Assembly: GCA_902603215.1 (NCBI GenBank)
Contig: CACKTW010000002.1
Span: forward strand, 13,728-77,727
DNA: 64,000 bases
Reading direction: 5' to 3'
Source: an uncultured Pelagibacteraceae bacterium
Lineage (GTDB): Bacteria; Pseudomonadota; Alphaproteobacteria; Pelagibacterales; Pelagibacteraceae
Position 1 is the stretch's first letter; each line of letters starts with the position of its first letter. The translations under genes and the position numbers were made by a program. The notes beneath the pieces are model-generated. The model did no database searches. It was not told the DNA's origin and worked only from the letters and a program-made list of their open reading frames with translations. Positions 33,081 through 55,415 of this stretch are shown piece by piece.

Positions 33081-33082
33081 AA

Positions 33083-34126: not shown

Positions 34127-34130
34127 TAAA

Positions 34131-34619: not shown

Positions 34620-34697
34620 AAAACACTGTACCACTGTGCCTTATGTGTGATCAATAATTTATAAATATTGAATAAAGGTATCTAGAACTAGGAAATA

Positions 34698-34734
34698 GAC
34701 CGCCGGACACGGGCTTATGAGTCCCGCGCTCTAA
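34698..34734 (-). pseudogene. tRNA-Met(CAU)-like relic (D-stem 3' half, anticodon arm, variable region only)
   Basis: The minus strand reads TTAGAGCGCGGGACTCATAAGCCCGTGTCCGGCGGTC. It contains TAGAGC, a 4-bp GC anticodon stem with loop CTCATAA (U33, CAU, A37), then CGGCGG without an intact T-loop. No acceptor stem is present. It is the only GC-rich patch in the one large gap of the pilin array. Confidence 0.3.
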
Positions 34735-34735
34735 T

Positions 34736-35335: not shown

Positions 35336-35835
35336 TAGTTTGTAATAGCTATATAACCGCTCTCAATGTAATGAGTGTCTTTGTAAGTACATGGTTCCAC
35401 AACACATGTTCCAACTTCCATTGTAGTTGGTCCATGATCTCTTAAATTAACAACTCCAGCTGAACCTTTGCTTTGATAGTTATATGGACAGCCTGTACCG
35501 CGCGAAGAACAAACTGACGGTAAAGAAGGGTTTACTGGGTTTTTTAATTTATCTTTCAAAGCTTTTTCTGCTGCATTTATTATTACAGGAACAGGTGTTG
35601 CTACATTTAAATTACTACAGATTAAATCTCCATCCATTGCGGTAGTTTCGCCTAAATCACATTTCTTAGTTTCTGCCATTATGTACTTAATAATATTTGC
35701 TTGTTGAGCTTTAACAGCGTTCATTTTTGCACTCTTCGTATACCCATTATACGCCACCACACCCACCGCAGCCAGAATACCGATGATAGCTACTACGACT
35801 AAGAGTTCTATAAGTGTAAATCCCTTTTGTTTCAT
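35335..35835 (-). CDS. type IV pilin paralogue P6
   Basis: 166 aa. MKQKG|FTLIELLVVVAIIGILAAVGVVAYNGYT; LKNPVN variant motif. Confidence 0.85.
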   Translation of the reverse strand: MKQKGFTLIELLVVVAIIGILAAVGVVAYNGYTKSAKMNAVKAQQANIIKYIMAETKKCDLGETTAMDGDLICSNLNVATPVPVIINAAEKALKDKLKNPVNPSLPSVCSSRGTGCPYNYQSKGSAGVVNLRDHGPTTMEVGTCVVEPCTYKDTHYIESGYIAITN

Positions 35836-35839
35836 AATC

Positions 35840-36319
35840 TTATGGGTACTGAGATTTTGGCCACTGATGATAAGTAACTTTGCCTCTACATCTTACTCTT
35901 AATTTAAATCCTGCAGACTCTGGATAATAGGCAAATTGCCCATCTTTAGGTGGATCACCAATATAACTTAATATTCCTAAATTATAATCTAAGTCCTCAT
36001 ATGGACTCTTCGCATAGTTGGTAAAATGTTTGACAGTTTCTCCAGCTATGGTTCCAAAGTTTGAACAAGATACATCTCTTGCGGTACCTTCTTTATTATT
36101 AAGATATTGACCTTTCAAAGACACTTTTCCGTCTATGTCACATAAAGTCCAATGCTGATTAATTAATCTTTTTAAAGTTGCGTAATGGTTTAAACATACT
36201 TTTTCTTTTGCACTTGCAGTATACCCATTATAAGCAACTACTCCTACTGCAGCTAAGATGCCAATGATGGCTACTACGACTAGAAGTTCTATTAGAGTGA
36301 AGCCTTTTCGTTTCATCAT
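35840..36319 (-). CDS. type IV pilin paralogue P7
   Basis: 159 aa. M(M)KRKG|FTLIELLVVVAIIGILAAVGVVAYNGYT, with two adjacent ATGs at 36314-36319; AKSPYE variant motif. Confidence 0.85.
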   Translation of the reverse strand: MMKRKGFTLIELLVVVAIIGILAAVGVVAYNGYTASAKEKVCLNHYATLKRLINQHWTLCDIDGKVSLKGQYLNNKEGTARDVSCSNFGTIAGETVKHFTNYAKSPYEDLDYNLGILSYIGDPPKDGQFAYYPESAGFKLRVRCRGKVTYHQWPKSQYP

Positions 36320-36329
36320 AAACTTAAGA

Positions 36330-36839
36330 TTAAGGTGTTATTTTAACTCTACTGTAATTTGCGGTATTATTACATGGTGTTGAATGACAGCAATATATAT
36401 CAATTTGAGAATTATTATCTGATACAAAAACATAACCTACGTGACTATCTTTTGGACGGCCTCCCCAGTTAGCAAACTGCATTAAAGACTTTTCAGTTTT
36501 AAAAGGATTTTTCATAGTGCAAAATGAGCACTTTGAATAACCAACATAATTCATAAAAGCCCCTCTGGCTATTCTTCCTGGGCTCACTACATTTAAAGGA
36601 CAGAGAAAATTATTACTATTTTTTTGGTCAAAAATATAGTCGGTTAAACCTGCATTGCACTTTGTAGTTTCAAGTCTGATAAACTTTTCAACATTTTTAC
36701 AAGTAGACTTTACAGTTGCAGATTTTGTTCCTTCTGTATACCCATTATAAGCAACCACTCCCACGGCAGCTAGAATACCGATGATGGCGACGACGACTAA
36801 GAGTTCGATTAATGTAAAACCTGTTTTTTTAATATTCAC
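36330..36839 (-). CDS. type IV pilin paralogue P8
   Basis: 169 aa. GTG start at 36837-36839; leader (M)NIKKTG|FTLIELLVVVAIIGILAAVGVVAYNGYT; MKNPF variant motif. Confidence 0.8.
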   Translation of the reverse strand: MNIKKTGFTLIELLVVVAIIGILAAVGVVAYNGYTEGTKSATVKSTCKNVEKFIRLETTKCNAGLTDYIFDQKNSNNFLCPLNVVSPGRIARGAFMNYVGYSKCSFCTMKNPFKTEKSLMQFANWGGRPKDSHVGYVFVSDNNSQIDIYCCHSTPCNNTANYSRVKITP

Positions 36840-36850
36840 AAATTAATTCT

Positions 36851-37255
36851 TTAGCAGTCTTTACGTGTAATTTTCATTTTTTCAGTTAACGTCAGTATGC
36901 ATCTTTTTGTCTTATGTCGTGCATTAATGTTTAATGTTTGTTGGCTCTGGTGACCTTGTATACAAAACTCCCATTCATCTGAAGGTAGTGTTTCTTTTCC
37001 ATCAAGGAGATTATCTTGAATATTTTTATTTGAAGAAGAATTGCATGAGCCAGAATAATAATAAGATCCATTTTCCGATGTATATTCTTCATTAGCTAGC
37101 AAAATTGCATTTAAGCTAAGTTCAGCATCTTTTTTTTTAGCCGACCAAGCGTAACCCTGATAACTTGTAATTCCTATGGCTGCAAGAATTCCCAAAATAG
37201 CCACTACCACCAATAATTCTATTAGTGTAAAGCCTTCTTGACGATGAAGCTTCAT
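36851..37255 (-). CDS. divergent PilE-like type IV pilin P9
   Basis: 134 aa. MKLHRQEG|FTLIELLVVVAILGILAAIGITSYQGYAWSAKKKDAELSLNAILLANEEYTSENGSYY follows the PilE-type pattern (SYQxY .. A..L .. EEY .. Y). It lacks the KNPY motif of the other nine. Confidence 0.75.
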   Translation of the reverse strand: MKLHRQEGFTLIELLVVVAILGILAAIGITSYQGYAWSAKKKDAELSLNAILLANEEYTSENGSYYYSGSCNSSSNKNIQDNLLDGKETLPSDEWEFCIQGHQSQQTLNINARHKTKRCILTLTEKMKITRKDC

Positions 37256-37273
37256 CGAATTTAATTATTTTTT

Positions 37274-37711
37274 TTAGTTAACGCTAACAGTTGCTTCCAT
37301 TTTATCAGCTGCTGCACACCCCGATTTAGTACAAGTTCTAACCACAACATTTCCGCTTGATTCACTTAAGCTAACATAACCTTCGTTATAACTTGAACTT
37401 GATCTAACAGCATTATTACCAGTGCTATATGGATTTTTATCAGTCATTGTTGCAACCGCTCCTGTTATAGCTTTAGACGCTGTTGCGGGACAATCTTGAC
37501 TTGTTCCCATAAATTTTGATTCACCCAAAGAACATTTTTGTATTTCTGCTGAAATATATTTAACTGCTTGAGCATGCATAGTTTTAGTTGCATTCACTTT
37601 TGCCGCTCCCGTATATCCGTTATAAGCTACCACACCTACGGCAGCTAAAATTCCTATAATCGCAACTACAACTAACAGTTCGATCAATGTAAATCCTTTA
37701 TTTTTTTTCAT
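37274..37711 (-). CDS. type IV pilin paralogue P10 (first in the array; candidate major pilin)
   Basis: 145 aa. MKKNKG|FTLIELLVVVAIIGILAAVGVVAYNGYT; DKNPY motif. It is the only array member with a 71-nt upstream spacer and a clear Shine-Dalgarno-like GGGGGA 7 nt before the ATG. Confidence 0.85.
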   Translation of the reverse strand: MKKNKGFTLIELLVVVAIIGILAAVGVVAYNGYTGAAKVNATKTMHAQAVKYISAEIQKCSLGESKFMGTSQDCPATASKAITGAVATMTDKNPYSTGNNAVRSSSSYNEGYVSLSESSGNVVVRTCTKSGCAAADKMEATVSVN

Positions 37712-42702: not shown

Positions 42703-43342
42703 CAGGTAATCCTACAATTGAAATGGTGCCTTCTGAGACAATGGTTCCAGATTTTACATCAACCGTTATTGTTTCTTTATCATAATTAATTACTTTACTT
42801 GACTTTGATAATGCTCTTCTAAATTTTAAATACCCTAAATAATTGCCTTGAATTTTATAATTTACTGGAATTTTATAATACAAAGCTTGTTGGCCTTCTG
42901 TATTTTCTCCAGAATTTTCAGCTTCGCCTGCTGGTTCAGGCTCTCCTTTTTTAATATTGATAATGCTTAAACTATTTGTCATAGCATAATTACTTATGTT
43001 TTGATAAAGATCCTCCACTTCTTTTTTGCTGTGAAATAGCTTACTGCTTTTTTTATATCTCGGTTCAAGTTCTTTAACTCTAGCTTCAAGAGTGTTGATA
43101 TTACTCAAATATTCATCAACTTTACTCTGATTTTCATTCATAACATCAAGTCTTTCTTTTTGAGCACTAATTACAGGTGAGACAAAAACATAATAAATAA
43201 TTAAAAAAATTAATATAGCACCACCTATCGATCCAAATTTAATTAGTGTTTTTTTATCCTTTAAAAGACCTGCACCACCGCCACTTTTTATTTTTTCTAT
43301 GAGATCTTTTACATCCAAATTTTTTAAAGCAGCTAAATCCAT
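42686..43342 (-). CDS. pilO: PilO-like pilus assembly protein
   Basis: 218-aa bitopic ORF with one TM helix, a coiled coil (ERLDVMNENQSKVDEYLSNINTLEARVKELE) and a C-terminal domain. The call rests on synteny. Confidence 0.55.
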   Translation of the reverse strand: MDLAALKNLDVKDLIEKIKSGGGAGLLKDKKTLIKFGSIGGAILIFLIIYYVFVSPVISAQKERLDVMNENQSKVDEYLSNINTLEARVKELEPRYKKSSKLFHSKKEVEDLYQNISNYAMTNSLSIINIKKGEPEPAGEAENSGENTEGQQALYYKIPVNYKIQGNYLGYLKFRRALSKSSKVINYDKETITVDVKSGTIVSEGTISIVGLPDEYNQ

Positions 43343-45462
43343 TAAACTCCTTTTAATTTACAAAGTATTGTAAATCCCTTTTTGTTTGAAGATGATTGTT
43401 CTGTTTCTGCTGTTCCAACATTCATATCAACTAATGATGCTTGCGCAATAAGTGATTTTTCATTCAAGTTACTAATAAAATTTAGTATGTCTTGATCAGA
43501 AAATGCAGAACCTTGAATGGTAACATTTGTTGACCCATCAAATTCTAATTTAGAAAACTGTACTCGTACCGGAACGCTCCGTGTAATTTGGGCTAAAGCA
43601 CGATATGAGCCTATTTGATTGGAGTTAACTTTTTTTCCAAGTTTTAAAGCCGATTCCATTTCATTTTTTTGCTTCATTAACTTAGAATATCTCGCGTTCA
43701 CTCTGTCAAATTCACCTTGGGCTTGATCAAATGCTAAAAGTTTCTCTTTATTTGAATGATAGTTAAAATAAGAAAAACAAATCAATATTAAATAGATTCC
43801 TGCTATGGCTCCAGCTAAACCTTTAAAAGCAAATCCTGACAAAAACTTAATTCTATTTTGTTGTCTAACTACATCACGATTTGGCAATAAATTAATATTT
43901 TTTACAGCAGTAACAAATTTATAATAACCAAAAACATCTAACTTACGAAAAGCCAATCCTAATACTGATGTTAAAGGTGATCGGTTATCAAGATTTGTTT
44001 TTTCCTGATTGTATGCTGGAACCGTTACTTGAAATAAAGGATCAAAAATTTTAAATGCAGTAGTGGGTAGATTTTTTGAAAATAAAGGAATTAGATCTTT
44101 AATATTTTTTAAATTACTGACAACATCTATTCTATTAATTTTAGCCTCATATTTGGTTTCATATTCGCTAATAGCCTGTTTAATCTGCATCGAATACCTT
44201 CTAATAACATTCCTTGATTCGTCGTTTCCTTGGTTTGGGTTAGCATTAATTATGCTTTCCTTTTCTGGAGATCTTAAAAAAATATCTGTAATGATAGGAA
44301 TGTTGTTATGAATAATCATAAAATAATTTTCTTCTGCTCCAAATTCCATTAGTGCAGAACTTGCCTTCTGTGCTCCGCCTATGGAAAGATTATCGAATGC
44401 ATTTTTTAGAGTAAAACATCTTACATCCATAATAACTGGGTTAAGATTTGCTTTTTTAATAATTCCTGAAAAGGCATTTACATCGGAAAGTTTGGATGCA
44501 ACGAAAAGAATATCCATAGTATTATTTTTTGGATTTCGGTTAATAACTTGATGAAAAACAGAATAATCATTAAGATTATCAGCTAATTGGACTAGATTTT
44601 CCCAAAGAGAATCGGTTTCGATGGCTTTTGTTAATTCCTCCTCTGTCATAAGAGGGCTTGTAACAACACGAATAATGGCGCTAGTAACGGGTATTGAAAG
44701 AGCAACATTGGTGGATATAATCTTCGCATTAGCTAAGGCCAACTTAATTTCTTCTGATAAATAATCTTTGTGCTCAATTAAATTTTCACTAATCTTTTCT
44801 TGATCAAGTAAACGGTATGAAAATTTGTCTAAGATCCATTTTCCTTTATTATCTTTAGTAACTTGAGCGACGCGAACAGCTTGACTTGTAATATCCACTC
44901 CCACAATTTCCTCTCCGGCTACGCTCATTTTACTAACTTTGGATTTGAAAAAACCTTGTAAATTTTGTGCAAACTTACTTGTTTTTTTTATTTTAGATCC
45001 TTCAGATGCAGGGTTTTTTTTACCAAAACTAGGTTTTGAAATTTTTATATTTTTTAATTTTTCAAAGATGCTTGAACTTGATTTTGTCGTTTCAAAGGAT
45101 TGTTGTGGATTTTCAGTTGGAGCAATTTCTGCTTTTTCAGGTTTTGTTGGTTGTGAAGAAATTTTTTCTTCAACAATTTTAGGTGGGGGATCAACCATTT
45201 TGGATACGACTTCTTCTCCTTGAGGAGGCTTACTTTCAGTTAATGGCTGATCTTTTTCTTCAGATGAAACCTGCAAATCATCGTACCATTTTTCTAAAAT
45301 AGGTATGGCTTCCTCTAAATTAGTCGTTCCTGATGAAACGATCTTCTGCTTGCCATTTATGTAGGTTCTTCCTACCCAATTGTGAGATTTCAACTCACCT
45401 TTGTATTTATCTTGCCTTACGTATATATGGAGTCTCCCATTTTTCTTGTGAATTGTCTCCAT
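43342..45462 (-). CDS. fused PilM-PilN with a ~170-aa N-terminal extension
   Basis: 706-aa ORF. Residues ~183-515 are a PilM-like actin-fold region (EIVGVDITSQAVRVAQV..). Residues 523-527 are INLLP, the canonical PilN N-terminal motif. Residues ~541-566 are a TM helix, followed by a coiled coil and a PilN C-domain. Residues 1-62 form a small folded-looking domain and residues 63-170 a Pro/Glu/Ser/Lys-rich linker. Confidence 0.7.
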   Translation of the reverse strand: METIHKKNGRLHIYVRQDKYKGELKSHNWVGRTYINGKQKIVSSGTTNLEEAIPILEKWYDDLQVSSEEKDQPLTESKPPQGEEVVSKMVDPPPKIVEEKISSQPTKPEKAEIAPTENPQQSFETTKSSSSIFEKLKNIKISKPSFGKKNPASEGSKIKKTSKFAQNLQGFFKSKVSKMSVAGEEIVGVDITSQAVRVAQVTKDNKGKWILDKFSYRLLDQEKISENLIEHKDYLSEEIKLALANAKIISTNVALSIPVTSAIIRVVTSPLMTEEELTKAIETDSLWENLVQLADNLNDYSVFHQVINRNPKNNTMDILFVASKLSDVNAFSGIIKKANLNPVIMDVRCFTLKNAFDNLSIGGAQKASSALMEFGAEENYFMIIHNNIPIITDIFLRSPEKESIINANPNQGNDESRNVIRRYSMQIKQAISEYETKYEAKINRIDVVSNLKNIKDLIPLFSKNLPTTAFKIFDPLFQVTVPAYNQEKTNLDNRSPLTSVLGLAFRKLDVFGYYKFVTAVKNINLLPNRDVVRQQNRIKFLSGFAFKGLAGAIAGIYLILICFSYFNYHSNKEKLLAFDQAQGEFDRVNARYSKLMKQKNEMESALKLGKKVNSNQIGSYRALAQITRSVPVRVQFSKLEFDGSTNVTIQGSAFSDQDILNFISNLNEKSLIAQASLVDMNVGTAETEQSSSNKKGFTILCKLKGV

Positions 45463-45490
45463 TAGGACCCCCTGAGTTTAAATTTATAAA

Positions 45491-45894
45491 CTCTTACACA
45501 AAATTAGATATCTCTAACACAATTCTCTAACACAACTTTATTCTTAAGTCTAACACAAAAATAGATTTATTTTATCATATTTCAATAAAATCAATAAATT
45601 CAACAAAATTTAGATTAATAAATTTTATAGCATTTAGATAAAAATTAATAAAACTCTAACACAAAAAACTTTAATCATTTAGTTTAAATTGTGTTAGAGT
45701 TTAACCATCCGCTCTATAAATTGAAAAAATGTTATTTTTATCAATAAAAACCTATATGAATAGGGCTTTTTGCTTGATTTTAAATATACACATCATTATT
45801 TTTAATAAATATTATAGATTTTGTGTTAGAGTTTATATGAAGCAAATTTTCTTGTGTTAGAGTTTATTAACTCTATAGAGTTTTTGTGTTAGAG
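45491..45894. promoter_or_regulatory. nine copies of a TGTGTTAGAG(TTT) motif in two mirror-oriented clusters within the pilMN/pilT divergent spacer
   Basis: Read directly. CTCTAACACA on the + strand lies at 45512-21, 45525-34 and 45654-63, with variants at 45491-500 (CTCTTACACA) and 45548-57 (GTCTAACACA). TGTGTTAGAG on the + strand lies at 45690-99, 45822-31, 45853-62 and 45885-94. Confidence 0.55.
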
Positions 45895-46173
45895 TTCTTG
45901 TTTTTAATTGATATTATTAAATAATTGATAGAAAACTAAATAAATACCGTATTATAGAGCATTTAATCTATTTTGCAGTAAAATAAGGCTTTATTTGTAT
46001 TTACTATTAAAAAACCTATCTTTATGGGGTTTTTTATCTCCTATCTAAAATAATATTAAAAAGCCTTAAAAATAAGGAAAATTTAAAATATCAAGTAAAA
46101 TACAACGTTTTCTAAAATGGGCAAAAAGGCTCGGGTATGTAATAATCCACCAATAAATTATACTATTTCAATC

Positions 46174-47187
46174 ATGATAAATAAAATCACAGAGCTTGCT
46201 AAAAAAAATTTAAAAATCTCAGATTTTCACCTTAGAGGAGGCTCTGACATTGCCTGTCGTATTATGGGTGAAATTGTCATTGAAAAAAATTCGAAAATTG
46301 AAAGTAAAGATATTGATGATCTATTAAAAAATAATTGTACTGAAGAGGAAATTAATATTTTCAAAACAAAAAAGGAATTGGATTGTGCTGTTATGTTGGG
46401 TGATCTTAGATTCAGAGCTAATTTTTACAAAACGCTCAAAGGTCCCGCTGCGGTGCTTAGAAGGGTTGAAACTAAAATTCCAAAAATGGATAATCTTAAT
46501 TTGCCACCAGTTCTTTTTGAGTTGATCGATGCTCATAAAGGTTTGGTTTTGGTTACGGGACCCACGGGATCTGGAAAATCTACTACGTTGGCTGCCATTA
46601 TCAATCAAATAAACGAAACAAGATCAGCCAACATTATTACTATCGAAGATCCTGTAGAATTTATTCATAAAGATAATAAAAGTATTGTCTCTCAAAGAGA
46701 AGTTGGAAAACAAACAGAAAGCTTTGCAAGGGCTTTAAAGGGTGCGTTGAGGGAAGATCCTGACGTTATCCTGGTTGGTGAGCTAAGAGACCTAGAGACC
46801 ATAGGAATGGCTCTTACGGCAGCTGAGACAGGGCATTTAGTCTTCGGAACCCTCCATACGAGCGGAGCACCTAATACCATAAATAGAATAATTGATGTTT
46901 TTCCTCCTGAACAACAAGATCAAATTCGCGCCCAGATTGCAGAATCTCTTAAGATGGTAATTACCCAGAAGTTATATAAGAAAAAAGACGGCTCAGGACG
47001 AATTGGTGCCTTCGAAGTGATGGTTTGTACCCCGCCAATTAAGAACTTAATCCGAGAAGCAAAGATTCACCAGATACCAAGTGTGATGCAAACTTCCCAA
47101 AGAGAAGGTATGATCACTATGGAAAAATCAATCGAAGGATTAATTGGAACAGGAACCATAAGCAATGCTGAAACAAAAGGAAAATAA
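46174..47187 (+). CDS. pilT: twitching-motility retraction ATPase PilT
   Basis: The track ORF starts at 46117, but the family-typical N-terminus (MINKITELAKKNLKISDFHL) begins at the ATG at 46174. It has Walker A (GPTGSGKSTT) and the PilT signature PIKNLIREAKIHQI (AIRNLIRE-like). Confidence 0.9.
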   Translation: MINKITELAKKNLKISDFHLRGGSDIACRIMGEIVIEKNSKIESKDIDDLLKNNCTEEEINIFKTKKELDCAVMLGDLRFRANFYKTLKGPAAVLRRVETKIPKMDNLNLPPVLFELIDAHKGLVLVTGPTGSGKSTTLAAIINQINETRSANIITIEDPVEFIHKDNKSIVSQREVGKQTESFARALKGALREDPDVILVGELRDLETIGMALTAAETGHLVFGTLHTSGAPNTINRIIDVFPPEQQDQIRAQIAESLKMVITQKLYKKKDGSGRIGAFEVMVCTPPIKNLIREAKIHQIPSVMQTSQREGMITMEKSIEGLIGTGTISNAETKGK

Positions 47188-47866
47188 AGCTTTTACACTT
47201 ATCGAAATACTAGTCGTTATAGTCATTATAATAATTTTTGTAATCTTTGCGGCACCTAATTTAACGAACTACGCAACTGAACGCGAAGTTAAACAAGAAG
47301 TTTATAGTTTTGTAGAATACTTCGAGGAAAAAAAAGCGGAAGTTCAATCTGGCAAATATGGTGTGCTAGTAATCGGACAAACTTCTCCTGAACAAGACAA
47401 AAGTTACAACTGGTATATGACACCCGAAGAATTTGCTATCCAACTAAAAATCCCTGCGCCAGGAAGAACAAATAGAAATAATGCATCAAATTACAATAAC
47501 AAAAGTATTATGAATTATCATAGGATGTGTCCCGGTTCTCCCCAGAACAGCCCTGATGGAAGATGGACAAAAGATAGTGCTGACGCTTTTCAATGGTCAG
47601 ACAAAGTTTATACTTGGCCGAATAAAAAATATTGTGTAACGAAAGATGCATATCTGCATCCTGGTGAACTTGAATTTAATGTGACCTCTGCTGAAAAAGC
47701 AAGTTTTCTTATCTGCTCAAGAAAAAACACTACTCACCCTAGTGGAAGTAATCGCTGTAATTTCAATAACAAAAATGATTTTCGTTATGCCATACAAATT
47801 GCAAGAGATTTAAAACTGAAAGTTTATAAGTATAATTTAAAGAAAGACAAATGGATATTGCAGTAA
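47165..47866 (+). CDS. FimT/GspH-like minor pilin
   Basis: 233 aa. Prepilin leader MLKQKENKA|FTLIEILVVIVII with Glu+5. It overlaps the pilT 3' end by 23 nt and is first in the minor-pilin operon. Confidence 0.55.
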   Translation: MLKQKENKAFTLIEILVVIVIIIIFVIFAAPNLTNYATEREVKQEVYSFVEYFEEKKAEVQSGKYGVLVIGQTSPEQDKSYNWYMTPEEFAIQLKIPAPGRTNRNNASNYNNKSIMNYHRMCPGSPQNSPDGRWTKDSADAFQWSDKVYTWPNKKYCVTKDAYLHPGELEFNVTSAEKASFLICSRKNTTHPSGSNRCNFNNKNDFRYAIQIARDLKLKVYKYNLKKDKWILQ

Positions 47867-48337
47867 ATGAAATCAAACAAAGGGCTAACATTAAAAGGGC
47901 TAACATTAATTGAATCGCTTGTCTGCTTAGTAATTATTGGAATTGGATTTATAGCCGTTAATCAACTTATAACTTTTGCCGTAAGCTCCATGGATCGCTC
48001 CATGGAAAGAACTAAAGTTAATTTTTTATCCGAAATGGTTATCGAAGATATGATAGGAGATACAAATAATGCTTCAAGTTATGTATTCAATGAGCAATGT
48101 TCACATTCTACAGGAAACACTTCTAATCTTTCTGATAAACAAAAAAATAAGTGGAGAGAAAGATTTCAGGCCAAAAATCAAATAAGGATTCTTGAAAACC
48201 ATGTCTGGAAAGAAAAGAAACCAAGATGTCTTTCAGGCGATGGGAAAAGATCTTATGTGGATGCAACTACAGGAAGGTTTATTTTTAAAACAAACAAAGG
48301 AAAAAGAAAAAAATATTTGGGGGTCGGTTTTAAATGA
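47867..48337 (+). CDS. PilV-like minor pilin
   Basis: 156 aa. Leader MKSNKGLTLKG|LTLIESLVCLVIIGIGF; the position fits the fimT-pilV-pilW-pilX order. Confidence 0.5.
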   Translation: MKSNKGLTLKGLTLIESLVCLVIIGIGFIAVNQLITFAVSSMDRSMERTKVNFLSEMVIEDMIGDTNNASSYVFNEQCSHSTGNTSNLSDKQKNKWRERFQAKNQIRILENHVWKEKKPRCLSGDGKRSYVDATTGRFIFKTNKGKRKKYLGVGFK

Positions 48338-49122
48338 AAATTAAAAAAAATTCAGCCTTCACTTTAATTGAAACAATGATAGCACTCGTTATTTCGTTAA
48401 TAGCTGTTGGCGCTATATATTATTCTTATCTTTTTTTTAAAAGTTCTTATCAATCCATTTTGGATAAGGCTGCTATGAGCGATTCTGGAAGAGTTTCTCT
48501 TTCTGTTATTTCGAAAGATTTAAGAAATGCAGGTTATAAAGACATAAATTTCAGCAGGGCTTTTGACAGAAAAATTGAACATGTGGATAAATATAATGGC
48601 AAAGAATCCGATTCCCTTGTCATTTGGTACAACACATCCCCAAATGAAAGACTAAGAATAAGATATTTTTTAAAAAAATATCCAACAGGTAGTGATATGT
48701 TTCTTGCTCGAGAGGTTGTTGAAAATCCGACAAGCGGACCGAAATTTAGATATTGCGAAAGATATTCGAGTCAAAAAAATTGCCTACCTCAAAATATAGT
48801 TCCGTTTGTTACAGACTTTCAAATAGTTCTAAATGATGTCAATGGTAACGAGATAAAGCCCGTGTGCGAAAAAGATATAGCTACTGTGTCAAATGCCGCT
48901 CCATTAGGACGTGGTAGCTGCTCTACAGCTGGAGACAATAAGCAAGAAGAAGTACATACAGCAGAAATTTATTTAACAGTAAGATCTCCTAATCCAATAA
49001 ATAAAACAGAAAAAAAATATAGAATTGAAAATGCTAATTGGGATCAAACTCTACCACCGGACAGATACCACCGGGAAACATTTTATATCAGTGTCTATTT
49101 AAGAAATATTGTAAAGATGTAA
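48334..49122 (+). CDS. PilW-like minor pilin
   Basis: 262 aa. Leader MKIKKNSA|FTLIETMIALVISLIAVGAIYY; size and order fit PilW. Confidence 0.5.
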   Translation: MKIKKNSAFTLIETMIALVISLIAVGAIYYSYLFFKSSYQSILDKAAMSDSGRVSLSVISKDLRNAGYKDINFSRAFDRKIEHVDKYNGKESDSLVIWYNTSPNERLRIRYFLKKYPTGSDMFLAREVVENPTSGPKFRYCERYSSQKNCLPQNIVPFVTDFQIVLNDVNGNEIKPVCEKDIATVSNAAPLGRGSCSTAGDNKQEEVHTAEIYLTVRSPNPINKTEKKYRIENANWDQTLPPDRYHRETFYISVYLRNIVKM

Positions 49123-49746
49123 ATGAAAATAAAAAAATATAAAAACTCAGAAAAGGGATTTGCCATTGCTTTAGCATTACTCATGCTGCTCGTTATGTCT
49201 TTAATGGGCGCAACCTTAGTTATGGTGGCTGGAAGCGATCATAAAAAAAATGCTATTAAAGATTCTAGTCAACAGACATTTTATGCGGCTGAAACAGGAA
49301 TTACCGAAGCTAAAAAATGGTTATCATCGCAAACGAGTTTGTCTGCAAATAATGATCCAAACCCAAATTTAAAATTTTGTAAAACATCTCTTTTTTCCAA
49401 CTTAAGTTCAGTAAAAGCCATTAATGATTATGTGGGTAGTAAAAGATTAGATGAAATTATTACTGTAAGCGGTGATGAGAAAAAAAGATTAGAAAAATAC
49501 AGTTATGAGTTTTTTATTACTTATACTCCTGATGGAAGTGGTAATACTTCTACTCCAAGAACTAAAACAGTGGCAGGGTCAACGGGATCAAGCGTTGCTG
49601 AAGGAACTGCTTATAAGTCGGGTGGTACAAGTACAGGTACTTATTACACTATATTTTCGTGTGGATGTAATGATGTACGTAATAAATGTAAACAAGGAGA
49701 AGATACTATAGTAAAATTATTAGCTGATCTAGTATTGGTACAATGA
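49123..49746 (+). CDS. PilX-like minor pilin
   Basis: 207 aa. N-terminus ..SEKGFAIALALLMLLVMSLMGATLV (PilX_N-like, no Glu+5), followed by QTFYAAETGI. Confidence 0.45.
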   Translation: MKIKKYKNSEKGFAIALALLMLLVMSLMGATLVMVAGSDHKKNAIKDSSQQTFYAAETGITEAKKWLSSQTSLSANNDPNPNLKFCKTSLFSNLSSVKAINDYVGSKRLDEIITVSGDEKKRLEKYSYEFFITYTPDGSGNTSTPRTKTVAGSTGSSVAEGTAYKSGGTSTGTYYTIFSCGCNDVRNKCKQGEDTIVKLLADLVLVQ

Positions 49747-50270
49747 GAAAAAAAATTACAATAATAGTTTTAAGCCTAGTGATGTTGTTTTTCGCATCAA
49801 CTTCTTACGCTTGTAATTTTCAAATGAGCCAATTTGGCGACCCTAAGGAAAAAATAGTCATTAATCCTGCTCCGCTTTCATTTCCTGATCAATTTGGTGG
49901 AGAAAGCTTGGCTATTCCAATCCAAGCTTTATGTAAAAATGACAACTCGTTATATGGCACGCTGGTGGTTTATCTTTATATAGAAAATAAATTATCACAA
50001 ATACAGCTCTATAGACCCAACATGGAAGATGCAAAACTTATGGATTTTGCCATGAAGAAATACGGCAAATTTAATCTTCCTGAAGGGATGCCAAAACAAA
50101 TGTGGAGAGGTAGTTATAATTGGGAAATTGGTAATGACTACATAGAGTATATTTCAACCAATATTCATGACGGACATGCAGAAGTTATAGAAATTACAAA
50201 CAAACTTTATGCCAATGCAATGGCTGATTACAACGCAAAAGTAGGAGAATGGTTAGACTCACAAAAATAA
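49743..50270 (+). CDS. secreted hypothetical protein in the minor-pilin operon
   Basis: 175-aa ORF with a signal peptide (MRKKITIIVLSLVMLFFASTSYA|C). It overlaps both neighbours. No family recognised. Confidence 0.4.
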   Translation: MRKKITIIVLSLVMLFFASTSYACNFQMSQFGDPKEKIVINPAPLSFPDQFGGESLAIPIQALCKNDNSLYGTLVVYLYIENKLSQIQLYRPNMEDAKLMDFAMKKYGKFNLPEGMPKQMWRGSYNWEIGNDYIEYISTNIHDGHAEVIEITNKLYANAMADYNAKVGEWLDSQK

Positions 50271-53200
50271 TTTTAACTTTTTTAATAGTTATGTTTAGCT
50301 TTCAAGCACAAGCTAAAAATCCGCCTCCAGGTACAGGCACTTCGGATATCCCTGCTAACATTTTAATCATGTTAGATAATTCAGGAAGTATGAGTTCAAA
50401 ACTCTATGCCTCGGTTGAGATTTATCATCCGCTTGATGTAGCAACTGATAGCTCGGGAAATGTTTATGTAATGGAATATTACAATAATAGAATAAAAGTT
50501 TTTGATAGTTCTGGAGCATATTTAAGAAGTTTTGGTGCCTATGGAAATAGCTGCAACAGATGGGCTTATGCAAGACAGTTTGATATTTACAATGATGAAA
50601 TTTATATAGCTGATACTTTCAATAAAAGAATAATAGTATTAGATTTAAATGGAAAATGTAAAAGAAAAGGAACTACTTATTCCGCCTATCCACATGCAAT
50701 AGCTGTAACTAGCCAATATGTTTGGGTTGGAAATCCTAGTAGTGCAATTGAGAAATATAACTCTGCGTTATCGTATGCTGGACGTTATTTAGTGGGACAA
50801 AGTAATGTAAATTATGCTTGGGGAATGTCTGTTAACAGCTCTGAAAACAAATTGCTTGTAGCATCATATAATGGAAATGAAATTTCTGAATTTTCAATAG
50901 TTTCTGGTGCGCTTAGTCATGTAAGAAGTTCAAGCACATCATATTCATCATCAAATGGATATTTTAGAAGACCTCTGGATACAGGATATGATAGCAGTGG
51001 AAATATTTATGCAGTAGACCTTTTTAATAGCAGACTTCAAAAATTTAATTCCAGTATGACTTATCAAGCAAAAGTTGGAAGCTGGTCTTCGTCGTCAGCT
51101 TTTGCGTATCCTTACGGAATGCATGTAGATAGCAGTGATAACATTTATGTAGCGGATCATTATAATTATGCCATTCGAAAATTCGATACCAGTCTAACTG
51201 AAACCGATACCTTTGGGGGTGGCGCAGGCACAAGGCTAGATGCGGCTAAAAAAGTTATTAAAAAAATTGTCTCCAATACGGATCTTACGTCGGGGGCAAA
51301 CTTTGGTCTTATGGAATGGGGAACTCGGCACAATATCAGAGTAAAAATTAGCGATACCGGCGCCAAAACGATTTATAGCAACGTAGATGGAGTTTATGCA
51401 AGTGGAGGAACTGATCTTGCAAGAGCAATGAATATTGCTAGAAATTATTTTACCAGCGGTCAGGTTGCCAATTGGAATTTAAGTTGTTCTGTTAATTATT
51501 TAATTGTCATTAGTGATGGTTATTGGTCTGGACACAGCACTGTTATAAGCATAGCTCAACAAATTAAAAATGCTTACAACATCAAAACATTTGCGGTAGG
51601 TTTTGGACTGAGTGGAGCTAACACAAATTATAGTACATTAGCTACAGCAGGAGGAACTGTTAAGCCTTTATACGCATCCAATCAAACAGAATTATTGGCC
51701 AAATTAACCGATGCTATTAAACAGGCAATCTCTGGAAAATTAACATTTACCACGCCAGCCGTGATGTCAGATGTCACCAAAGGAAGTTATATTTATCAAT
51801 CAACCTTTGAGTATGAAAAGAACAAACAGTGGAAAGGTAGCTTAAAAAAATACAAATTAAATACAAATGGGAGCTTTGGTGCCGTTCAGTGGGATGCTGC
51901 TGACAAACTGAATAGCAAAAGCGCTTCATCAAGAAAAATATGGACAACTGGTATAAGCACAACGGGAACTAATAACTTTACAACAACCGATCGAGATCAT
52001 TTAAAACCATTACTATTTCCAAGCCAATCACCAACAGATACAGAAGTTGATAATTTAATTAATTTTATAAGGGGTGTTGATACTTACGATCAAGACGCCG
52101 ATAGTAATAAAACGGAATCGATCCATAAACTTGCAGATATATATCATTCCGAACTAATTGTAGTAGGAGCGCCAGATTCACTTTCTTCAGCCAATGATGG
52201 ATCAACCAATTATGATAAGAAAGATGCGTATTACAGATCGCAAAATAATTATAATAATTTTAAAAATGGTTCGAGTTGTGGTGGCTCTTGTGCCAATAGA
52301 ACAGAAGTAGTGCTAGCGGGGGCCAATAACGGTATTCTTCATGCCTTTAAAACTTCGGATGGTGAAGAGTTGTGGGGTTATATTCCGCCTAATGTTCTAG
52401 GTAATCTTGAAAAAATCCCATCGAGTAAAGCTAATTCAACAAATCCTATTTATGGTATTGATGGATCGCCTGTGGTTAAAGATATTTATTTTGATGACAC
52501 TCCTGATGACAGCACAAACAATCCAAGGTGGCGAACAGTCTTATTAGGTGGGCTTGGAGCAGGAGGAAAAGGTTTATATGCAATTGATATAACAGATATT
52601 AATAATCCAACTCATCTTTTTGCAATAAATAATGATGAATCAAATAAAGCTATTCAACATTGGGATGTGGATGGCTTAAAATCAGAATTTGGTTATAGGG
52701 GTGGAAGTGGTCTGGATCCTAAATATGATTATAGAAAATTAGGAGAAACGTGGTCAACGCCTAGAATTATTAGAATCAAAGTTAGCGGTAAAGATAAATG
52801 GGTTGCAGTCTTTGGTGGAGGATATAATGGGGCAGTTAATCCAAATTATGGTTCGGCTGTATTTGTCATGGACATAGAAGACGAAGGAAGATTGCTTAAA
52901 GTCATTGATATAGAAGACTCAGCCGCACAATCTTATAGTTGGGGTGGTAATTTGGGCAGTAGAGTGGGTGGTATTTTAACTAACAATAACACAGTATTTG
53001 AAGTTGCCCAATGGAGTCCTGGAATAAGTTATGACTCGTCAAAAGGTGAATCGCTTATAGCAGAATTTAATCCCCCGGTTGGTCATACAATAACATTTTC
53101 TAACAGTGGAAGTGTATCAACAGTAACAAAAGTAACTTTTGATTCTGCTTGGCCATGCCCAAGAAGTGAAAATTGTACAGGAAATGTAAAATTTAGAAGA

Positions 53201-54064
53201 TTCTCAAATGATATAGTTAATTCTTTACCAGCAGATTTAAGCGTGATCACCGCAGATGGTACTGACAAAGCAAATTATGATGGTGCAATTGTTTATGCTA
53301 CTGACCTTGAGGGAAAGTTAACTAAAGTTAATTTAACAGAAAATTTTAGTTTAATTTGTCCTTCTGGAAAAACTTGCAATAAAGATATTGACAAAGTGAT
53401 TAAAAATATATCAACAACTACTTTATTTTCTGCTGAGTCAACATCAGAAAATGGCAGATACATTTATACAAGGCCTGAGGTAACAATAAATAATGATAAT
53501 AATCTTTGGTTATATTTTGGAACAGGTAATACTCAAAAGCTTCATGAGCAATCCAACAAAATTCAAAATAGAGCTTATGGTATTAAAGACAAAGATTTTC
53601 CAAACTTTGTTAAAATACAAACAGATGAAGAAGAAAAAAAGTATAAGTATAAAAATACAATTTCTAAATGTAAAACAGCTCCAGCCTGTCCAGGTACTAC
53701 AGACCTGGGATGGTATGATAATTTACCGAGAGCACAAAAACTTACCGCCGAACCTACGGTTGATAAAGATAGGGTATATTTTCCAATTTATGAACCGACA
53801 ACATCTACAAATGCCTGCAACACAGGAAAAGCAATATTAACGGCTTACGATACAAAATGTGGAAACTCTGTATTAAATGTTCATTTAGGTACTGGGGTTT
53901 TATCTAAAGTAGTTGTTCAAGGGGATAATCTTTATATCGGTATAGCAGGTGAAGCTGATAAAAACATATCAGGCTTTACGTCAACAGGTAATTTGATCAC
54001 AGGAAAATCTAAAGCCAAAGGCAGTGGTGGAAAAGTCCAATTGGAGGGTTGGAGAGAAAATTAA
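50249..54064 (+). CDS. pilY1: PilY1-like pilus tip adhesin with a vWA domain interrupted by NHL repeats
   Basis: 1271-aa ORF with a signal peptide and MIDAS residues DNSGS (aa 43-47), T388 and D423. NHL-type repeats span aa ~55-322 (e.g. SSGNVYVMEYYNNRIKVFDSSG, SSGNIYAVDLFNSRLQKFNSS, SSDNIYVADHYNYAIRKFDTS). The C-terminal PilY1 propeller has the hallmarks LADIYHSELIVVG and VLAGANNGILHAFKTSDGEELWGYIPP. Confidence 0.8.
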   Translation: MVRLTKIILTFLIVMFSFQAQAKNPPPGTGTSDIPANILIMLDNSGSMSSKLYASVEIYHPLDVATDSSGNVYVMEYYNNRIKVFDSSGAYLRSFGAYGNSCNRWAYARQFDIYNDEIYIADTFNKRIIVLDLNGKCKRKGTTYSAYPHAIAVTSQYVWVGNPSSAIEKYNSALSYAGRYLVGQSNVNYAWGMSVNSSENKLLVASYNGNEISEFSIVSGALSHVRSSSTSYSSSNGYFRRPLDTGYDSSGNIYAVDLFNSRLQKFNSSMTYQAKVGSWSSSSAFAYPYGMHVDSSDNIYVADHYNYAIRKFDTSLTETDTFGGGAGTRLDAAKKVIKKIVSNTDLTSGANFGLMEWGTRHNIRVKISDTGAKTIYSNVDGVYASGGTDLARAMNIARNYFTSGQVANWNLSCSVNYLIVISDGYWSGHSTVISIAQQIKNAYNIKTFAVGFGLSGANTNYSTLATAGGTVKPLYASNQTELLAKLTDAIKQAISGKLTFTTPAVMSDVTKGSYIYQSTFEYEKNKQWKGSLKKYKLNTNGSFGAVQWDAADKLNSKSASSRKIWTTGISTTGTNNFTTTDRDHLKPLLFPSQSPTDTEVDNLINFIRGVDTYDQDADSNKTESIHKLADIYHSELIVVGAPDSLSSANDGSTNYDKKDAYYRSQNNYNNFKNGSSCGGSCANRTEVVLAGANNGILHAFKTSDGEELWGYIPPNVLGNLEKIPSSKANSTNPIYGIDGSPVVKDIYFDDTPDDSTNNPRWRTVLLGGLGAGGKGLYAIDITDINNPTHLFAINNDESNKAIQHWDVDGLKSEFGYRGGSGLDPKYDYRKLGETWSTPRIIRIKVSGKDKWVAVFGGGYNGAVNPNYGSAVFVMDIEDEGRLLKVIDIEDSAAQSYSWGGNLGSRVGGILTNNNTVFEVAQWSPGISYDSSKGESLIAEFNPPVGHTITFSNSGSVSTVTKVTFDSAWPCPRSENCTGNVKFRRFSNDIVNSLPADLSVITADGTDKANYDGAIVYATDLEGKLTKVNLTENFSLICPSGKTCNKDIDKVIKNISTTTLFSAESTSENGRYIYTRPEVTINNDNNLWLYFGTGNTQKLHEQSNKIQNRAYGIKDKDFPNFVKIQTDEEEKKYKYKNTISKCKTAPACPGTTDLGWYDNLPRAQKLTAEPTVDKDRVYFPIYEPTTSTNACNTGKAILTAYDTKCGNSVLNVHLGTGVLSKVVVQGDNLYIGIAGEADKNISGFTSTGNLITGKSKAKGSGGKVQLEGWREN

Positions 54065-54834: not shown

Positions 54835-55004
54835 AATTAAATATTGATTAAAGCTGTTAAACTTAAAATGCTTTCATAGCAGTAATGGATAAATAAGACA
54901 CTTTTTTCATAAACAACTTCAAGATCAGGAGTATAAATAATAACTTTCATAAAAGTATTGTAATCTAAAAAATATGTTCAATATTTGGCAAACAATTCAT
55001 AAGA

Positions 55005-55223
55005 TTATTTGCTATTAAATAAGCTTTTAATACAAGTAATAAACTTAGCAAATTCAGTGGGTTTCCATATAGACAAAAAAATATAGGGAGCTAATGCTGG
55101 CACAAGTCCAAACCAAACCCACTCATCCCACTGAAATGTTTGGGGTTTATTAAACCAAGTTAAGTAACCAACCAAAATAATCCATAAAAAAGATAAAGTT
55201 AATAATATTTTTCCCTTTAGCAT
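55005..55223 (-). CDS. small membrane protein (hypothetical)
   Basis: 72-aa ORF with two hydrophobic, Trp-rich helices. No family assigned. Confidence 0.35.
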   Translation of the reverse strand: MLKGKILLTLSFLWIILVGYLTWFNKPQTFQWDEWVWFGLVPALAPYIFLSIWKPTEFAKFITCIKSLFNSK

Positions 55224-55415
55224 AATATTATCAAGATATATTTTTTTTTAATCACCGTCAAAGTGAAAGCTTTATTTTGATTAATATGTTATGAGAAAAT
55301 AGAAAAAAATATGTTTAAATGGTTATTAAATGCACCCTTAGAAAAAGCTGTAATTTATTTTTTAGTAATTGTTTTTTTTATTTTGTTAATTTTAACTTTT
55401 ATACTATAAAAAAAT

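What the first reader, a model, noticed from the sequence alone, without database searches (positions are those of the whole stretch)
45463..46116. 654-bp divergent control region carrying nine copies of TGTGTTAGAG in mirror-symmetric clusters
This is by far the longest non-coding stretch in a window where most spacers are under 100 bp. A 10-nt core (extended consensus TTTTGTGTTAGAGTTT) occurs nine times. Five copies proximal to pilMN are oriented with pilMN transcription: 45491, 45512, 45525, 45548 and 45654. Four copies proximal to pilT are oriented with pilT transcription: 45690, 45822, 45853 and 45885. The central pair (45654-63 / 45690-99) forms an inverted repeat. The last three copies are spaced 31 and 32 bp apart, about three helical turns. 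This looks like a multi-site operator or iteron-like array for an unidentified DNA-binding protein that co-ordinates the two pilus operons. It does not match sigma-54 or CRP consensus sequences.
Basis: seen in the sequence. Interest (0 to 1): 0.7.

Follow-up and report, generated by a model that had tools for sequence, protein, structure and literature searches.

The report
Integrase-derived binding-site array before pilMN
In the ocean bacterium SAR11 (Pelagibacter), a conserved array of an 11-base motif sits in front of a pilus-machine gene whose protein begins with a DNA-binding module borrowed from a mobile-element integrase that uses the same motif, so the pilus protein probably binds and controls its own gene.

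Summary
There are 7 exact and 2 one-mismatch copies of TGTGTTAGAG, all inside the pilMN–pilT spacer and none elsewhere in the 64 kb (0.06 expected by chance).

The window is SAR11/Pelagibacter. Across 86 related loci plus the window, the exact 10-mer occurs 342 times within 800 bp upstream of pilMN and never in the other 654 kb held. The array is present whether the upstream neighbour is a divergent pilT (as here) or a co-directional pilY1, so it belongs to pilMN rather than to a pilMN/pilT pair.

A likely binding protein emerged. The first ~62 residues of PilMN are the most conserved part of the protein (89% identity; the following linker is 34%). They are homologous (up to 71% identity) to the N-terminal domain of a small family of Pelagibacter tyrosine integrases. 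Those integrase genes are flanked by the same motif family in the same geometry.

In the commonest clade, an inverted site pair brackets a TTGACG-N17-TAGAGT promoter.

Best reading: an exapted integrase arm-binding module and its arm-type sites now make a membrane-anchored pilus platform protein bind, and probably repress, its own promoter. DNA binding is inferred, not shown. I found no prior description.

The parts
45463..46173 (.). Non-coding spacer between pilMN (-) and pilT (+). The array occupies 45491-45894. The site-free stretch 45895-46173 next to pilT presumably holds the pilT promoter.
   Evidence: pilT start re-assigned to 46174
45491..45500 (-). Site 1, TGTGTAAGAG (one mismatch). 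Points toward pilMN, 29 bp from its ATG.
   Evidence: PWM score 17.2 bits; same variant conserved in L001
45512..45521 (-). Site 2, TGTGTTAGAG, pointing toward pilMN.
45525..45534 (-). Site 3, TGTGTTAGAG, 13 bp from site 2. Absent in L001.
45548..45557 (-). Site 4, TGTGTTAGAC (one mismatch). The same variant is the start-proximal site of integrase genes in L104 and L105.
45654..45663 (-). Site 5, pilMN-facing half of the central inverted pair.
   Evidence: I8, I9
45690..45699 (+). Site 6, outward-facing half of the central inverted pair. The spacing of 36 bp start to start matches the promoter-bracketing pair of the major clade (-73/-37).
45822..45831 (+). Site 7, distal and outward-facing.
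45853..45862 (+). Site 8, distal and outward-facing. It aligns to the only block that is invariant in all 8 divergent-type spacers (CTCTAACACAA).
45885..45894 (+). Site 9, distal and outward-facing.
45277..45462 (-). Codons 1-62 of pilMN: an N-terminal beta-sheet-plus-helix domain homologous to the N-terminal (arm-type) domain of Pelagibacter tyrosine integrases. This is the proposed reader of the sites.
44908..45276 (-). Codons 63-185 of pilMN: a low-complexity, highly variable linker (34% identity) joining the DNA-binding module to PilM.
43342..44907 (-). PilM (actin-like, cytoplasmic) fused to PilN (hydrophobic segment near residue 550 plus a periplasmic domain). This is the type IV pilus inner-membrane platform.
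   Evidence: PF11104 at 188-387; PF05137 at 623-703
45746..45771 (.). Second conserved element (A5G...T5, in the window AAAAACCTATATGAATAGGGCTTTTT) between site clusters. Its A-tract/T-tract frame recurs in both spacer types. Function unknown.
   Evidence: (D6)
46174..47187 (+). pilT (retraction ATPase). It heads the pilT-minor pilin-pilY1 block, which is inverted in this clade relative to most SAR11.

Best explanation
The nine repeats are arm-type binding sites inherited from a tyrosine-integrase gene. Their reader is most likely the first ~62 residues of PilMN itself, a small beta-sheet-plus-helix domain derived from the same integrase family. A ~120-residue flexible linker joins it to the cytoplasmic PilM part of the membrane-anchored type IV pilus platform. 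PilMN would therefore bind upstream of its own operon (pilMN-pilO-(pilP)-pilQ-pilB-pilC-pilins). In the commonest SAR11 clade, one site overlaps the extended -10 of a TTGACG-N17-TAGAGT promoter and an inverted partner lies just upstream of the -35. The simplest outcome is negative feedback: occupied sites exclude RNA polymerase when enough platform protein exists. The further pairs of sites, 20-21 bp apart and so on one face of the helix, would let several N-domains of an oligomeric PilMN assembly bind cooperatively and wrap or loop the region, as integrase arms do. Shown here: the motif's exclusivity and conservation, the domain homology, the same motif and geometry at integrase genes, and the promoter overlap.
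For: (1) Exclusivity: 342 exact 10-mers lie within 800 bp upstream of pilMN in 86 loci plus the window, and 0 in the other 654 kb. In 31 non-redundant loci the 11-mer with 0-1 mismatch occurs 197 times in 20.8 kb upstream and 0 times in 308 kb. (2) Footprint: in spacers that are otherwise 43% identical, CTCTAACACAA is the only invariant block. In 23 co-directional-type spacers the conserved blocks are the sites, ATTGAC and one A5G...T5 element. (3) The PilMN N-domain is the most conserved region of the protein: 89% identity, against 77% for PilM, 71% for PilN and 34% for the linker. (4) phmmer of residues 1-70 against 1.84 billion representatives gives only 131 hits. They are PilMN fragments plus 411-436-aa proteins carrying the domain at the extreme N-terminus, followed by SAM-like and PF00589 integrase domains. 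The closest integrase N-domain is 44/62 identical. (5) Those integrase genes sit at tRNA-Leu(CAA) islands in Pelagibacter genomes. They carry tandem outward-facing sites, then an inverted site 34 bp further on, 17-24 bp (70 bp in L087) before the int ATG. Examples: TTGTGTTAGAGTTT (L100), TTGTGTTAGAC (L104, L105), TGTGTAAGAG (L096), GGTGTCAAAG (L087). More sites lie beyond the tRNA and at the far island end. The degenerate pattern gives 16 hits in 5 kb of int flanks and 12 in the other 59 kb. (6) The AF2 model built on a 30-sequence alignment has pLDDT 86.8, with three main beta-strands plus a short N-terminal one and a C-terminal helix. (7) The promoter scan finds TTGACG-17-TAGAGT with TG, with the site over the -10. 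(8) Spacings of 20-21 bp dominate.
Against: No binding data exist. Foldseek against the PDB gives no significant match (best E about 1). hhalign against the lambda Int arm domain is negative. No Pfam family matches. The 'arm-binding' label therefore rests on the domain's position in integrases and on the flanking repeats, not on a solved relative. The BFVD hit to Mx8 integrase (TMq 0.64, rmsd 1.5 over 59 columns) has E 0.37. In the window's own clade the -35 hexamer is not conserved and the inverted pair lies ~200 bp from the ATG, so the promoter relation is unclear there. Island integrases with near-identical site preference could be the real readers. Genome-wide absence of the motif could not be tested on a whole genome.
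Confidence: 0.55

Rival explanations
1. The same sites and the same PilMN N-domain act mainly as a physical tether rather than a transcriptional switch. The multi-site array anchors this chromosomal locus to the membrane-embedded pilus platform, for chromosome or machine positioning or for local assembly. Any effect on transcription is secondary.
For: There are seven to nine sites spread over ~400 bp, far more than an operator needs. Most sites lie 70-450 bp upstream of any promoter element.
Against: The most constantly placed sites are those at the promoter and start codon. There is only one cluster per genome region examined. In four complete genomes the locus lies at about 85-87% of the record's coordinates. 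No segregation or polarity factor is linked to it.
Confidence: 0.15
2. The sites are read by another protein, either the island integrases with the same arm-site preference or an unidentified regulator. The PilMN N-domain then has a different role.
For: Integrases of the P0359 and P0296 type have start-proximal sites identical or nearly identical to the pilMN motif. They occur in Pelagibacter genomes.
Against: The integrase islands are variable, whereas every pilMN locus with enough upstream DNA has both the array and the near-invariant N-domain. No integrase of this family is encoded in the 64-kb window. Conservation of the array across 61-95% PilMN identity argues for a partner that is always present.
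Confidence: 0.12
3. The repeats are promoter modules (TGn-TAGAGT extended -10 elements), giving multiple divergent transcription starts or small RNAs, with no dedicated binding protein.
For: The motif contains TG-T-TAGAGT. In the major clade it is the -10 of the best-scoring promoter. Copies point outward on both sides in the window.
Against: A housekeeping -10 element would not be an invariant 11-mer confined to one locus. In most genomes the outward-facing copies point into the 3' end of pilY1. Tandem pairs 21 or 11 bp apart cannot each have their own -35. The same motif family flanks integrase genes and lies beyond their tRNA, where promoters are not expected. No Rfam family matches and no conserved terminator is found.
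Confidence: 0.08
4. The array is an inert scar of an old integrative element (a decayed attachment-site arm).
For: The module clearly derives from an integrase gene's 5' end. One lineage shows a decayed duplicate of the N-domain coding sequence.
Against: Exact 10-11-mers are preserved in multiple copies while surrounding spacer DNA has diverged to ~43% identity. The encoded domain is the most conserved part of PilMN. Neutral relics do not behave this way.
Confidence: 0.03

Closest known systems
Arm-type sites and the N-terminal arm-binding domain of heterobivalent tyrosine integrases (lambda Int, P4/P2-type, Tn916 Int)
   Same: A small N-terminal domain precedes the core-binding and catalytic domains in the integrase relatives. 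Multiple ~10-bp sites lie in tandem and in inverted orientation on both sides of the int gene and att site, including sites next to the int start. The predicted topology is a beta-sheet plus a helix. From general knowledge, arm-site binding near int promoters can autoregulate int (for example P4).
   Different: In PilMN there is no core-binding or catalytic domain, no core site and no tRNA target. The domain is fused to a pilus platform protein. Tandem spacing is 20-21 bp rather than 11 bp, and there are more sites. No detectable sequence or Foldseek similarity to solved arm domains was found.
Membrane-anchored one-component transcription regulators (ToxR, TcpP, CadC)
   Same: A cytoplasmic N-terminal DNA-binding module is tethered through one membrane span to a periplasmic domain, and it acts on promoter-proximal direct repeats (architecture inferred).
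   Different: Those proteins use an OmpR-type winged helix and are dedicated sensors. Here the DNA-binding module is integrase-derived and the body is a structural part of the type IV pilus machine (PilM-PilN).
AP2/ERF-type DNA-binding domains, which are held to derive from integrase or homing-endonuclease DNA-binding domains (general knowledge)
   Same: This is a precedent for a mobile-element beta-sheet DNA-binding domain recruited as a cellular gene regulator.
   Different: That case is eukaryotic and soluble. No sequence relationship was tested or claimed here.
Assembly-coupled or inventory-coupled control of surface organelles (PilS-PilR sensing of pilin; FlgM/sigma-28)
   Same: A machine component feeds back on expression of machine genes.
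   Different: Those systems work through kinases or secreted anti-sigma factors. No sigma-54 promoter or PilR-type enhancer is present here.
Centromere-like site clusters that tether DNA to polar or membrane proteins (ParB-parS, RacA-ram)
   Same: Clustered repeats are read by a protein attached to a cell-envelope structure (the tether reading).
   Different: There is a single ~400-bp cluster at a pilus operon, with no partition ATPase and no evidence for a role in segregation.

Membership tests
Integrase arm-binding domain plus arm-type sites | The domain is homologous to the extreme N-terminal domain of tyrosine recombinases, upstream of the SAM-like core-binding domain and the PF00589 catalytic domain | tested here: met
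   phmmer hits P0204, P0216, P0222, P0227, P0229 and P0246 (E 1e-8 to 1e-14, 48-60% identity). PF00589 and SAM-like domains follow in those proteins. The closest integrase, P0296, is 44/62 identical.
Integrase arm-binding domain plus arm-type sites | Multiple short sites in direct and inverted orientation flank the int gene and attachment site | tested here: met
   Seen in L087, L091, L096, L100, L104 and L105, with tandem 11-bp repeats, an inverted start-proximal site, and sites beyond tRNA-Leu and at the far island end. The pilMN array has the same inverted-pair geometry, 34-36 bp.
Integrase arm-binding domain plus arm-type sites | Fold like solved arm-binding domains (three-stranded sheet packed on a helix) | tested here: inconclusive
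   The AF2 model (pLDDT 86.8) has strands at 4-6, 11-15, 29-35 and 38-43 and a helix at 49-68. Foldseek against the PDB gives no hit with E<1. BFVD gives Mx8 integrase at TMq 0.64 but E 0.37. hhalign against lambda Int N-domain gives probability 0.8%.
Integrase arm-binding domain plus arm-type sites | Linked recombinase catalytic domain and core-type recombination site | tested here: not met
   PilMN continues into PilM_2 and PilN. No integrase is found in the window. It is therefore a derivative, not a member of a recombination system.
Integrase arm-binding domain plus arm-type sites | Direct, sequence-specific binding of the domain to the sites | not testable with these tools
   Needs EMSA, DAP-seq or ChIP.
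Iterons of a replication origin | Direct repeats next to a rep initiator gene, DnaA boxes and an AT-rich unwinding element | tested here: not met
   There is no Rep gene and the best DnaA-box match has 2 mismatches. The sites lie in both orientations. The GC-skew sign change at 45-46 kb coincides with the gene-strand switch. In most genomes both flanking genes are co-directional. dnaA was seen elsewhere, in a Pelagibacter contig next to an integrase island.
DNA uptake sequences (DUS/USS) | A short motif scattered at high density throughout the genome | tested here: not met
   0 copies in 63 kb of the window outside the spacer and 0 in 654 kb of related DNA.
Invertible promoter switch / shufflon | A segment between inverted repeats is found in both orientations, with a dedicated recombinase nearby | tested here: not met
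   All loci show the same polarity, with outward-facing sites distal and pilMN-facing sites proximal. Spacer alignments are colinear. No recombinase gene lies in the cluster.
ToxR/CadC-type membrane-bound regulators | OmpR-type winged-helix DNA-binding domain | tested here: not met
   No Pfam match at E<=10. The model is a beta-sheet plus helix. It works like this family, but is not a member.
Sigma-54 / PilR enhancer or CRP site | TGGCAC-N5-TTGCA promoter or TGTGA-N6-TCACA palindrome | tested here: not met
   Best matches have 4 and 3 mismatches respectively.
Known structured RNA | Match to an Rfam covariance model | tested here: not met
   Only tRNAs reach gathering score in the window. In the spacer the sole hit at E<1 is RsaE at 27 bits against a cutoff of 79.

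The most novel reading that the evidence does not exclude
The type IV pilus platform of SAR11 is physically coupled to specific DNA. A ring of PilMN subunits, each carrying an integrase-derived arm-binding domain on a long linker, clamps the multi-site array and forms an intasome-like nucleoprotein complex at the base of the pilus. Because the same motif forms the arms of small tRNA-Leu integrative elements in the same genomes, the pilus machine and these mobile elements would share one DNA code. Possible consequences are PilMN silencing or sequestering the elements, or element integrases re-programming pilus expression. That would link DNA uptake or pilus biogenesis with mobile-element control in the ocean's most abundant bacterium.
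Probability: 0.2. Interest if true: 0.9.

Novelty: new variant of a known kind. Interest (0 to 1): 0.78.

Why it matters
SAR11 is the most abundant heterotroph in the surface ocean. The role of its type IV pili is described as unclear (PMC12789548). From general knowledge, it also has very few transcription factors.

This locus offers a concrete, testable regulatory circuit: a defined 11-bp site, a defined 62-residue domain, and a promoter. It would also be, to my knowledge, the first type IV pilus platform protein (PilM/PilN) carrying a sequence-specific DNA-binding domain.

It is a clean case of an integrase arm-binding domain captured together with its cognate sites and turned to host use. 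It further suggests cross-talk between pilus expression and tRNA-Leu integrative elements that use the same motif.

The motif is also a sharp genomic marker. In about 700 kb of Pelagibacter and marine-metagenome DNA fetched around pilMN and integrase genes, the exact 10-mer was seen only upstream of pilMN and beside a family integrase gene.

Tried and rejected
- **Replication origin or iterons.** The cumulative GC-skew minimum at 45-46 kb follows the coding-strand switch. There are no DnaA boxes, and most relatives have co-directional genes on both sides.
- **Structured RNA or sRNA.** Rfam gathering and E-value scans were negative. The two hairpin-like elements (D6) fail the terminator criteria. 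The first keeps only its A-tract/T-tract frame in relatives, not its stem.
- **DNA uptake sequence, sigma-54, CRP, CtrA, IHF.** No support. There is a single IHF-consensus match, at 45930.
- **Exact contig look-up of the window's PilMN.** Not on record.
- **Sequence searches of the N-domain.** Pfam and PDB searches, with a single sequence and with a profile, found nothing. The integrase P0204 against PDB found nothing.
- **Structural searches.** Foldseek against the PDB gave nothing significant and BFVD only weak hits.
- **Viral contigs.** No relative of integrase P0204 was found. A scan for the motif pair returned only unrelated higher-GC phage contigs, several with 27-bp coding tandem repeats; none encodes the integrase or PilMN.
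- **Literature.** Searches found no description of this motif or of a DNA-binding PilM. Zhao et al. 2017 could not be opened.

Full report
**Observation.** The region between the ORFs 43342-45462 (-) and 46117-47187 (+) is non-coding. TGTGTTAGAG occurs 7 times exactly, where 0.06 is expected. With one mismatch allowed there are 9 copies. All nine lie between 45491 and 45894, and none lies elsewhere in the 64 kb. Five are on the - strand, facing pilMN, and four on the + strand. The central pair, 45654/45690, is inverted, and the last three copies are 31 and 32 bp apart. The extended consensus is T-TGTGTTAGAG-T. The ATG at 46117 is not conserved in the closest relative, where it reads ATA, whereas the in-frame ATG at 46174 is. 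The spacer is therefore probably 711 bp, at 22% G+C.

**Context.** Pfam identifies a type IV pilus cluster. On the - strand lie pilMN (a 706-aa fusion), pilO, an unassigned 142-aa ORF, a secretin, the assembly ATPase, the platform protein and ten tandem pilin genes. On the + strand lie pilT, minor pilins and a 1271-aa PilY1-like protein. A prepilin peptidase follows on the - strand. PilMN homologues come from marine metagenomes. The genome scan returned four complete Candidatus Pelagibacter genomes and two MAGs, so the window is SAR11.

**Conservation.** All six genome loci carry the exact 10-mer, and only in the few hundred bases upstream of pilMN. A metagenome scan added 80 loci. Over all 86 loci plus the window there are 342 exact copies within 800 bp upstream of pilMN (53 kb in total) and none in the remaining 654 kb. 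In 31 non-redundant loci the 11-mer with at most one mismatch occurs 197 times in 20.8 kb upstream and 0 times in 308 kb elsewhere.

Eight divergent-type spacers are only 43% identical on average, yet CTCTAACACAA is their one invariant block. In 23 spacers of the other type the conserved blocks are the sites, an ATTGAC hexamer and one A5G...T5 element.

**What the array belongs to.** In 46 loci the upstream neighbour is the 3' end of a co-directional pilY1. In 9 loci, plus the window and L001, it is a divergent pilT. In the co-directional genomes pilT lies ~8 kb away behind a 31-bp gap with no motif. The array is thus a pilMN feature.

Its polarity is constant: sites near the start codon face pilMN and distal sites face away. 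The typical layout in the commonest clade, relative to the ATG, is -351, -330, -244, -223, -94 and -73 (outward-facing) and -37 (inward-facing). That gives three direct pairs 21 bp apart and one inverted pair 36 bp apart. The window has the same 36-bp inverted pair. The 'pilT-oriented' copies in the window are the distal half of this array. They agree with pilT's direction because of a clade-specific inversion of the pilT-pilY1 block.

**Promoter.** In the commonest clade the sequence reads CTCTAACACA-N8-TTGACG-N17-TAGAGT, where TAGAGT and the preceding TGT are part of the inward-facing site. The hexamer and its distance are conserved, and the consensus scan scores it as a 9/12 promoter with an extended -10 TG. 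One site therefore covers about -18 to -8 and the partner about -53 to -44. In the window's clade no comparable -35 is seen and the promoter remains unassigned.

**The candidate reader.** PilM_2 starts only at residue 188. Residues 1-62 are nearly invariant in 120 homologues and are followed by a hypervariable low-complexity linker. Identity to the window averages 89% for residues 1-62, 34% for the linker, 77% for PilM and 71% for PilN. No Pfam or PDB sequence match exists.

An exhaustive phmmer search of 1.84 billion representative proteins gave only 131 hits. They are PilMN fragments plus 411-436-aa proteins in which the domain is at the very N-terminus. Those proteins contain SAM-like and PF00589 integrase domains and the usual catalytic motifs. 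A search with one of them defined a compact family of about 150 proteins. The closest integrase N-domain is 44/62 identical to PilMN's.

With a 30-sequence alignment AlphaFold gives pLDDT 86.8, with three main beta-strands plus a short N-terminal one and a long C-terminal helix. That is the general layout of integrase arm-binding domains. However, Foldseek finds no significant solved relative, BFVD gives only weak hits including Mx8 integrase, and hhalign against lambda Int is negative.

**The integrases use the same motif.** The integrase genes lie at tRNA-Leu(CAA) in Pelagibacter contigs, downstream of dnaA-dnaN...COQ7-DsbB, next to small islands that encode a resolvase.

Immediately upstream of each int gene there are two or three tandem outward-facing sites 11 bp apart. 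About 34 bp further on there is one inverted site, usually 17-24 bp before the ATG (70 bp in L087):
- L100: CTCTGACAC/CTCTAACAC and ATTGTGTTAGAGTTT
- L104, L105: ACTCAAACAC and TTGTGTTAGAC
- L096: TGTGTAAGAG/C
- L087: GGTGTCAAAG
- L091: TGTGTAAGAC, TGTGTTAGAC, TGTGTAAGAG

Further sites lie beyond the tRNA and at the distal island end. The variant sites in the window, TGTGTAAGAG and TGTGTTAGAC, are exactly forms used at integrase genes.

The simplest history is that the 5' end of such an integrase gene, meaning its promoter-proximal arm sites plus the arm-binding domain, was fused to pilM. The sites then multiplied. A decayed duplicate of the N-domain coding sequence upstream of pilMN in L008-L011 shows that this segment has been rearranged since.

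**Mechanism.** Shown: a locus-exclusive, deeply conserved multi-site array; a co-conserved integrase-type N-terminal domain in the adjacent gene; the same motif and geometry at the relatives' own genes; and overlap of a site with the predicted -10. Inferred: that the PilMN N-domain binds the sites; that binding at the -10 represses the operon (autorepression); and that the 20-21-bp pairs support cooperative, same-face binding by several subunits of the oligomeric, membrane-anchored platform.

The main alternative uses the same parts but makes tethering of the locus to the pilus base the primary function. Other rivals are reading by island integrases, plain promoter modules, or an inert scar. 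These are less consistent with the data (see rival explanations).

**Novelty.** Literature searches found no description of the motif, of a DNA-binding PilM, or of pilus regulation in SAR11. A recent paper states that the role of SAR11 type IV pili is unclear and that the cluster is variably present. Integrating pelagiphages that target tRNA-Leu are known, but the integrase family found here was not detected in viral contigs.

**Limits.** There is no experimental evidence, no whole-genome scan, and no significant structural match to a solved arm domain. The promoter is unassigned in the window's own clade.

Noticed in passing
window 32595-37711 (- strand); tRNA-Arg at 32219-32295: Ten tandem pilin-like genes (134-199 aa), each with an N-terminal methylation motif, lie directly downstream of pilC. 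One (36851-37255) has a sub-threshold ComP_DUS match (E 0.0018). A tRNA-Arg gene borders the pilus cluster, so the cluster may behave as a flexible island.
   Followed up: partly
window 46117 vs 46174: The longest-ORF start of pilT (ATG at 46117) is ATA in the 94%-identical relative L001. The conserved start is the in-frame ATG at 46174, which makes the spacer 711 bp.
   Followed up: yes
L008-L011 (e.g. L011 about 2330-2560, upstream of pilMN): A decayed, stop-containing duplicate of the N-domain coding sequence (MIHKKNGKFHIYI...) lies between the site array and the intact pilMN start.
   Followed up: partly
L100-L103 (e.g. L101 1-7092): A ~4.7-kb unit (integrase, tRNA-like stretch, resolvase, four small ORFs) is repeated head to tail on contigs up to 11.9 kb. 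This suggests a small integrative element present in tandem or as a circle. ARAGORN calls no tRNA in L100.
   Followed up: partly
L087 9230-9800; L091 9840-9880; L096 2845-2885; L104 193-232: Partial 5' tRNA-Leu copies lie upstream of the integrase genes (two in L087). They look like attachment-site duplicates from successive integrations near dnaA.
   Followed up: no
window 45746-45771 and 46010-46035: Two similar A5-hairpin-T5 elements are present (81% alike). The first aligns with an A5G...T5 element conserved between site clusters in both spacer types. Its function is unknown: it could be a bending or cofactor site or a weak terminator.
   Followed up: partly
window 46174-54064 compared with L002 1294-9639: The whole pilT-minor pilin-pilY1 block is inverted between SAR11 clades, lying between the prepilin peptidase gene and the array. 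PilMN identity tracks the arrangement.
   Followed up: yes
L055-L058, L062, L064, L067, L075, L076, L081, L083, L085: Some lineages have a 30-70-residue acidic, low-complexity extension in front of the N-domain. The pilMN-facing sites then sit just upstream of that earlier start codon.
   Followed up: partly
integrase N-domains compared with their sites: There is an apparent specificity pattern. N-domains with NW(V/I)GRTY go with GTGTTAGAG, NYVGRTY with GTGTAAGAG, NFVGRTF with mixed TGTGTAAGAC/TGTGTTAGAC, and FYVGRTY with GGTGTCAAAG. The sample is small and the pattern is untested.
   Followed up: no
window 54835-55415: The second-longest gap between large ORFs contains a 72-aa hydrophobic ORF (55005-55223, - strand), so it is probably not non-coding.
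   Followed up: partly
L106-L123 (IMG/VR contigs of ~37 kb, 42-46% G+C): Unrelated phage contigs carry 27-bp coding tandem repeats that happen to contain TGTGTTAGAG. No integrase or PilMN relative is encoded nearby.
   Followed up: yes
window 45000-46000: GC and AT skews change sign here, giving a local cumulative-skew minimum. This coincides with the switch of coding strand and is not accompanied by origin features.
   Followed up: yes
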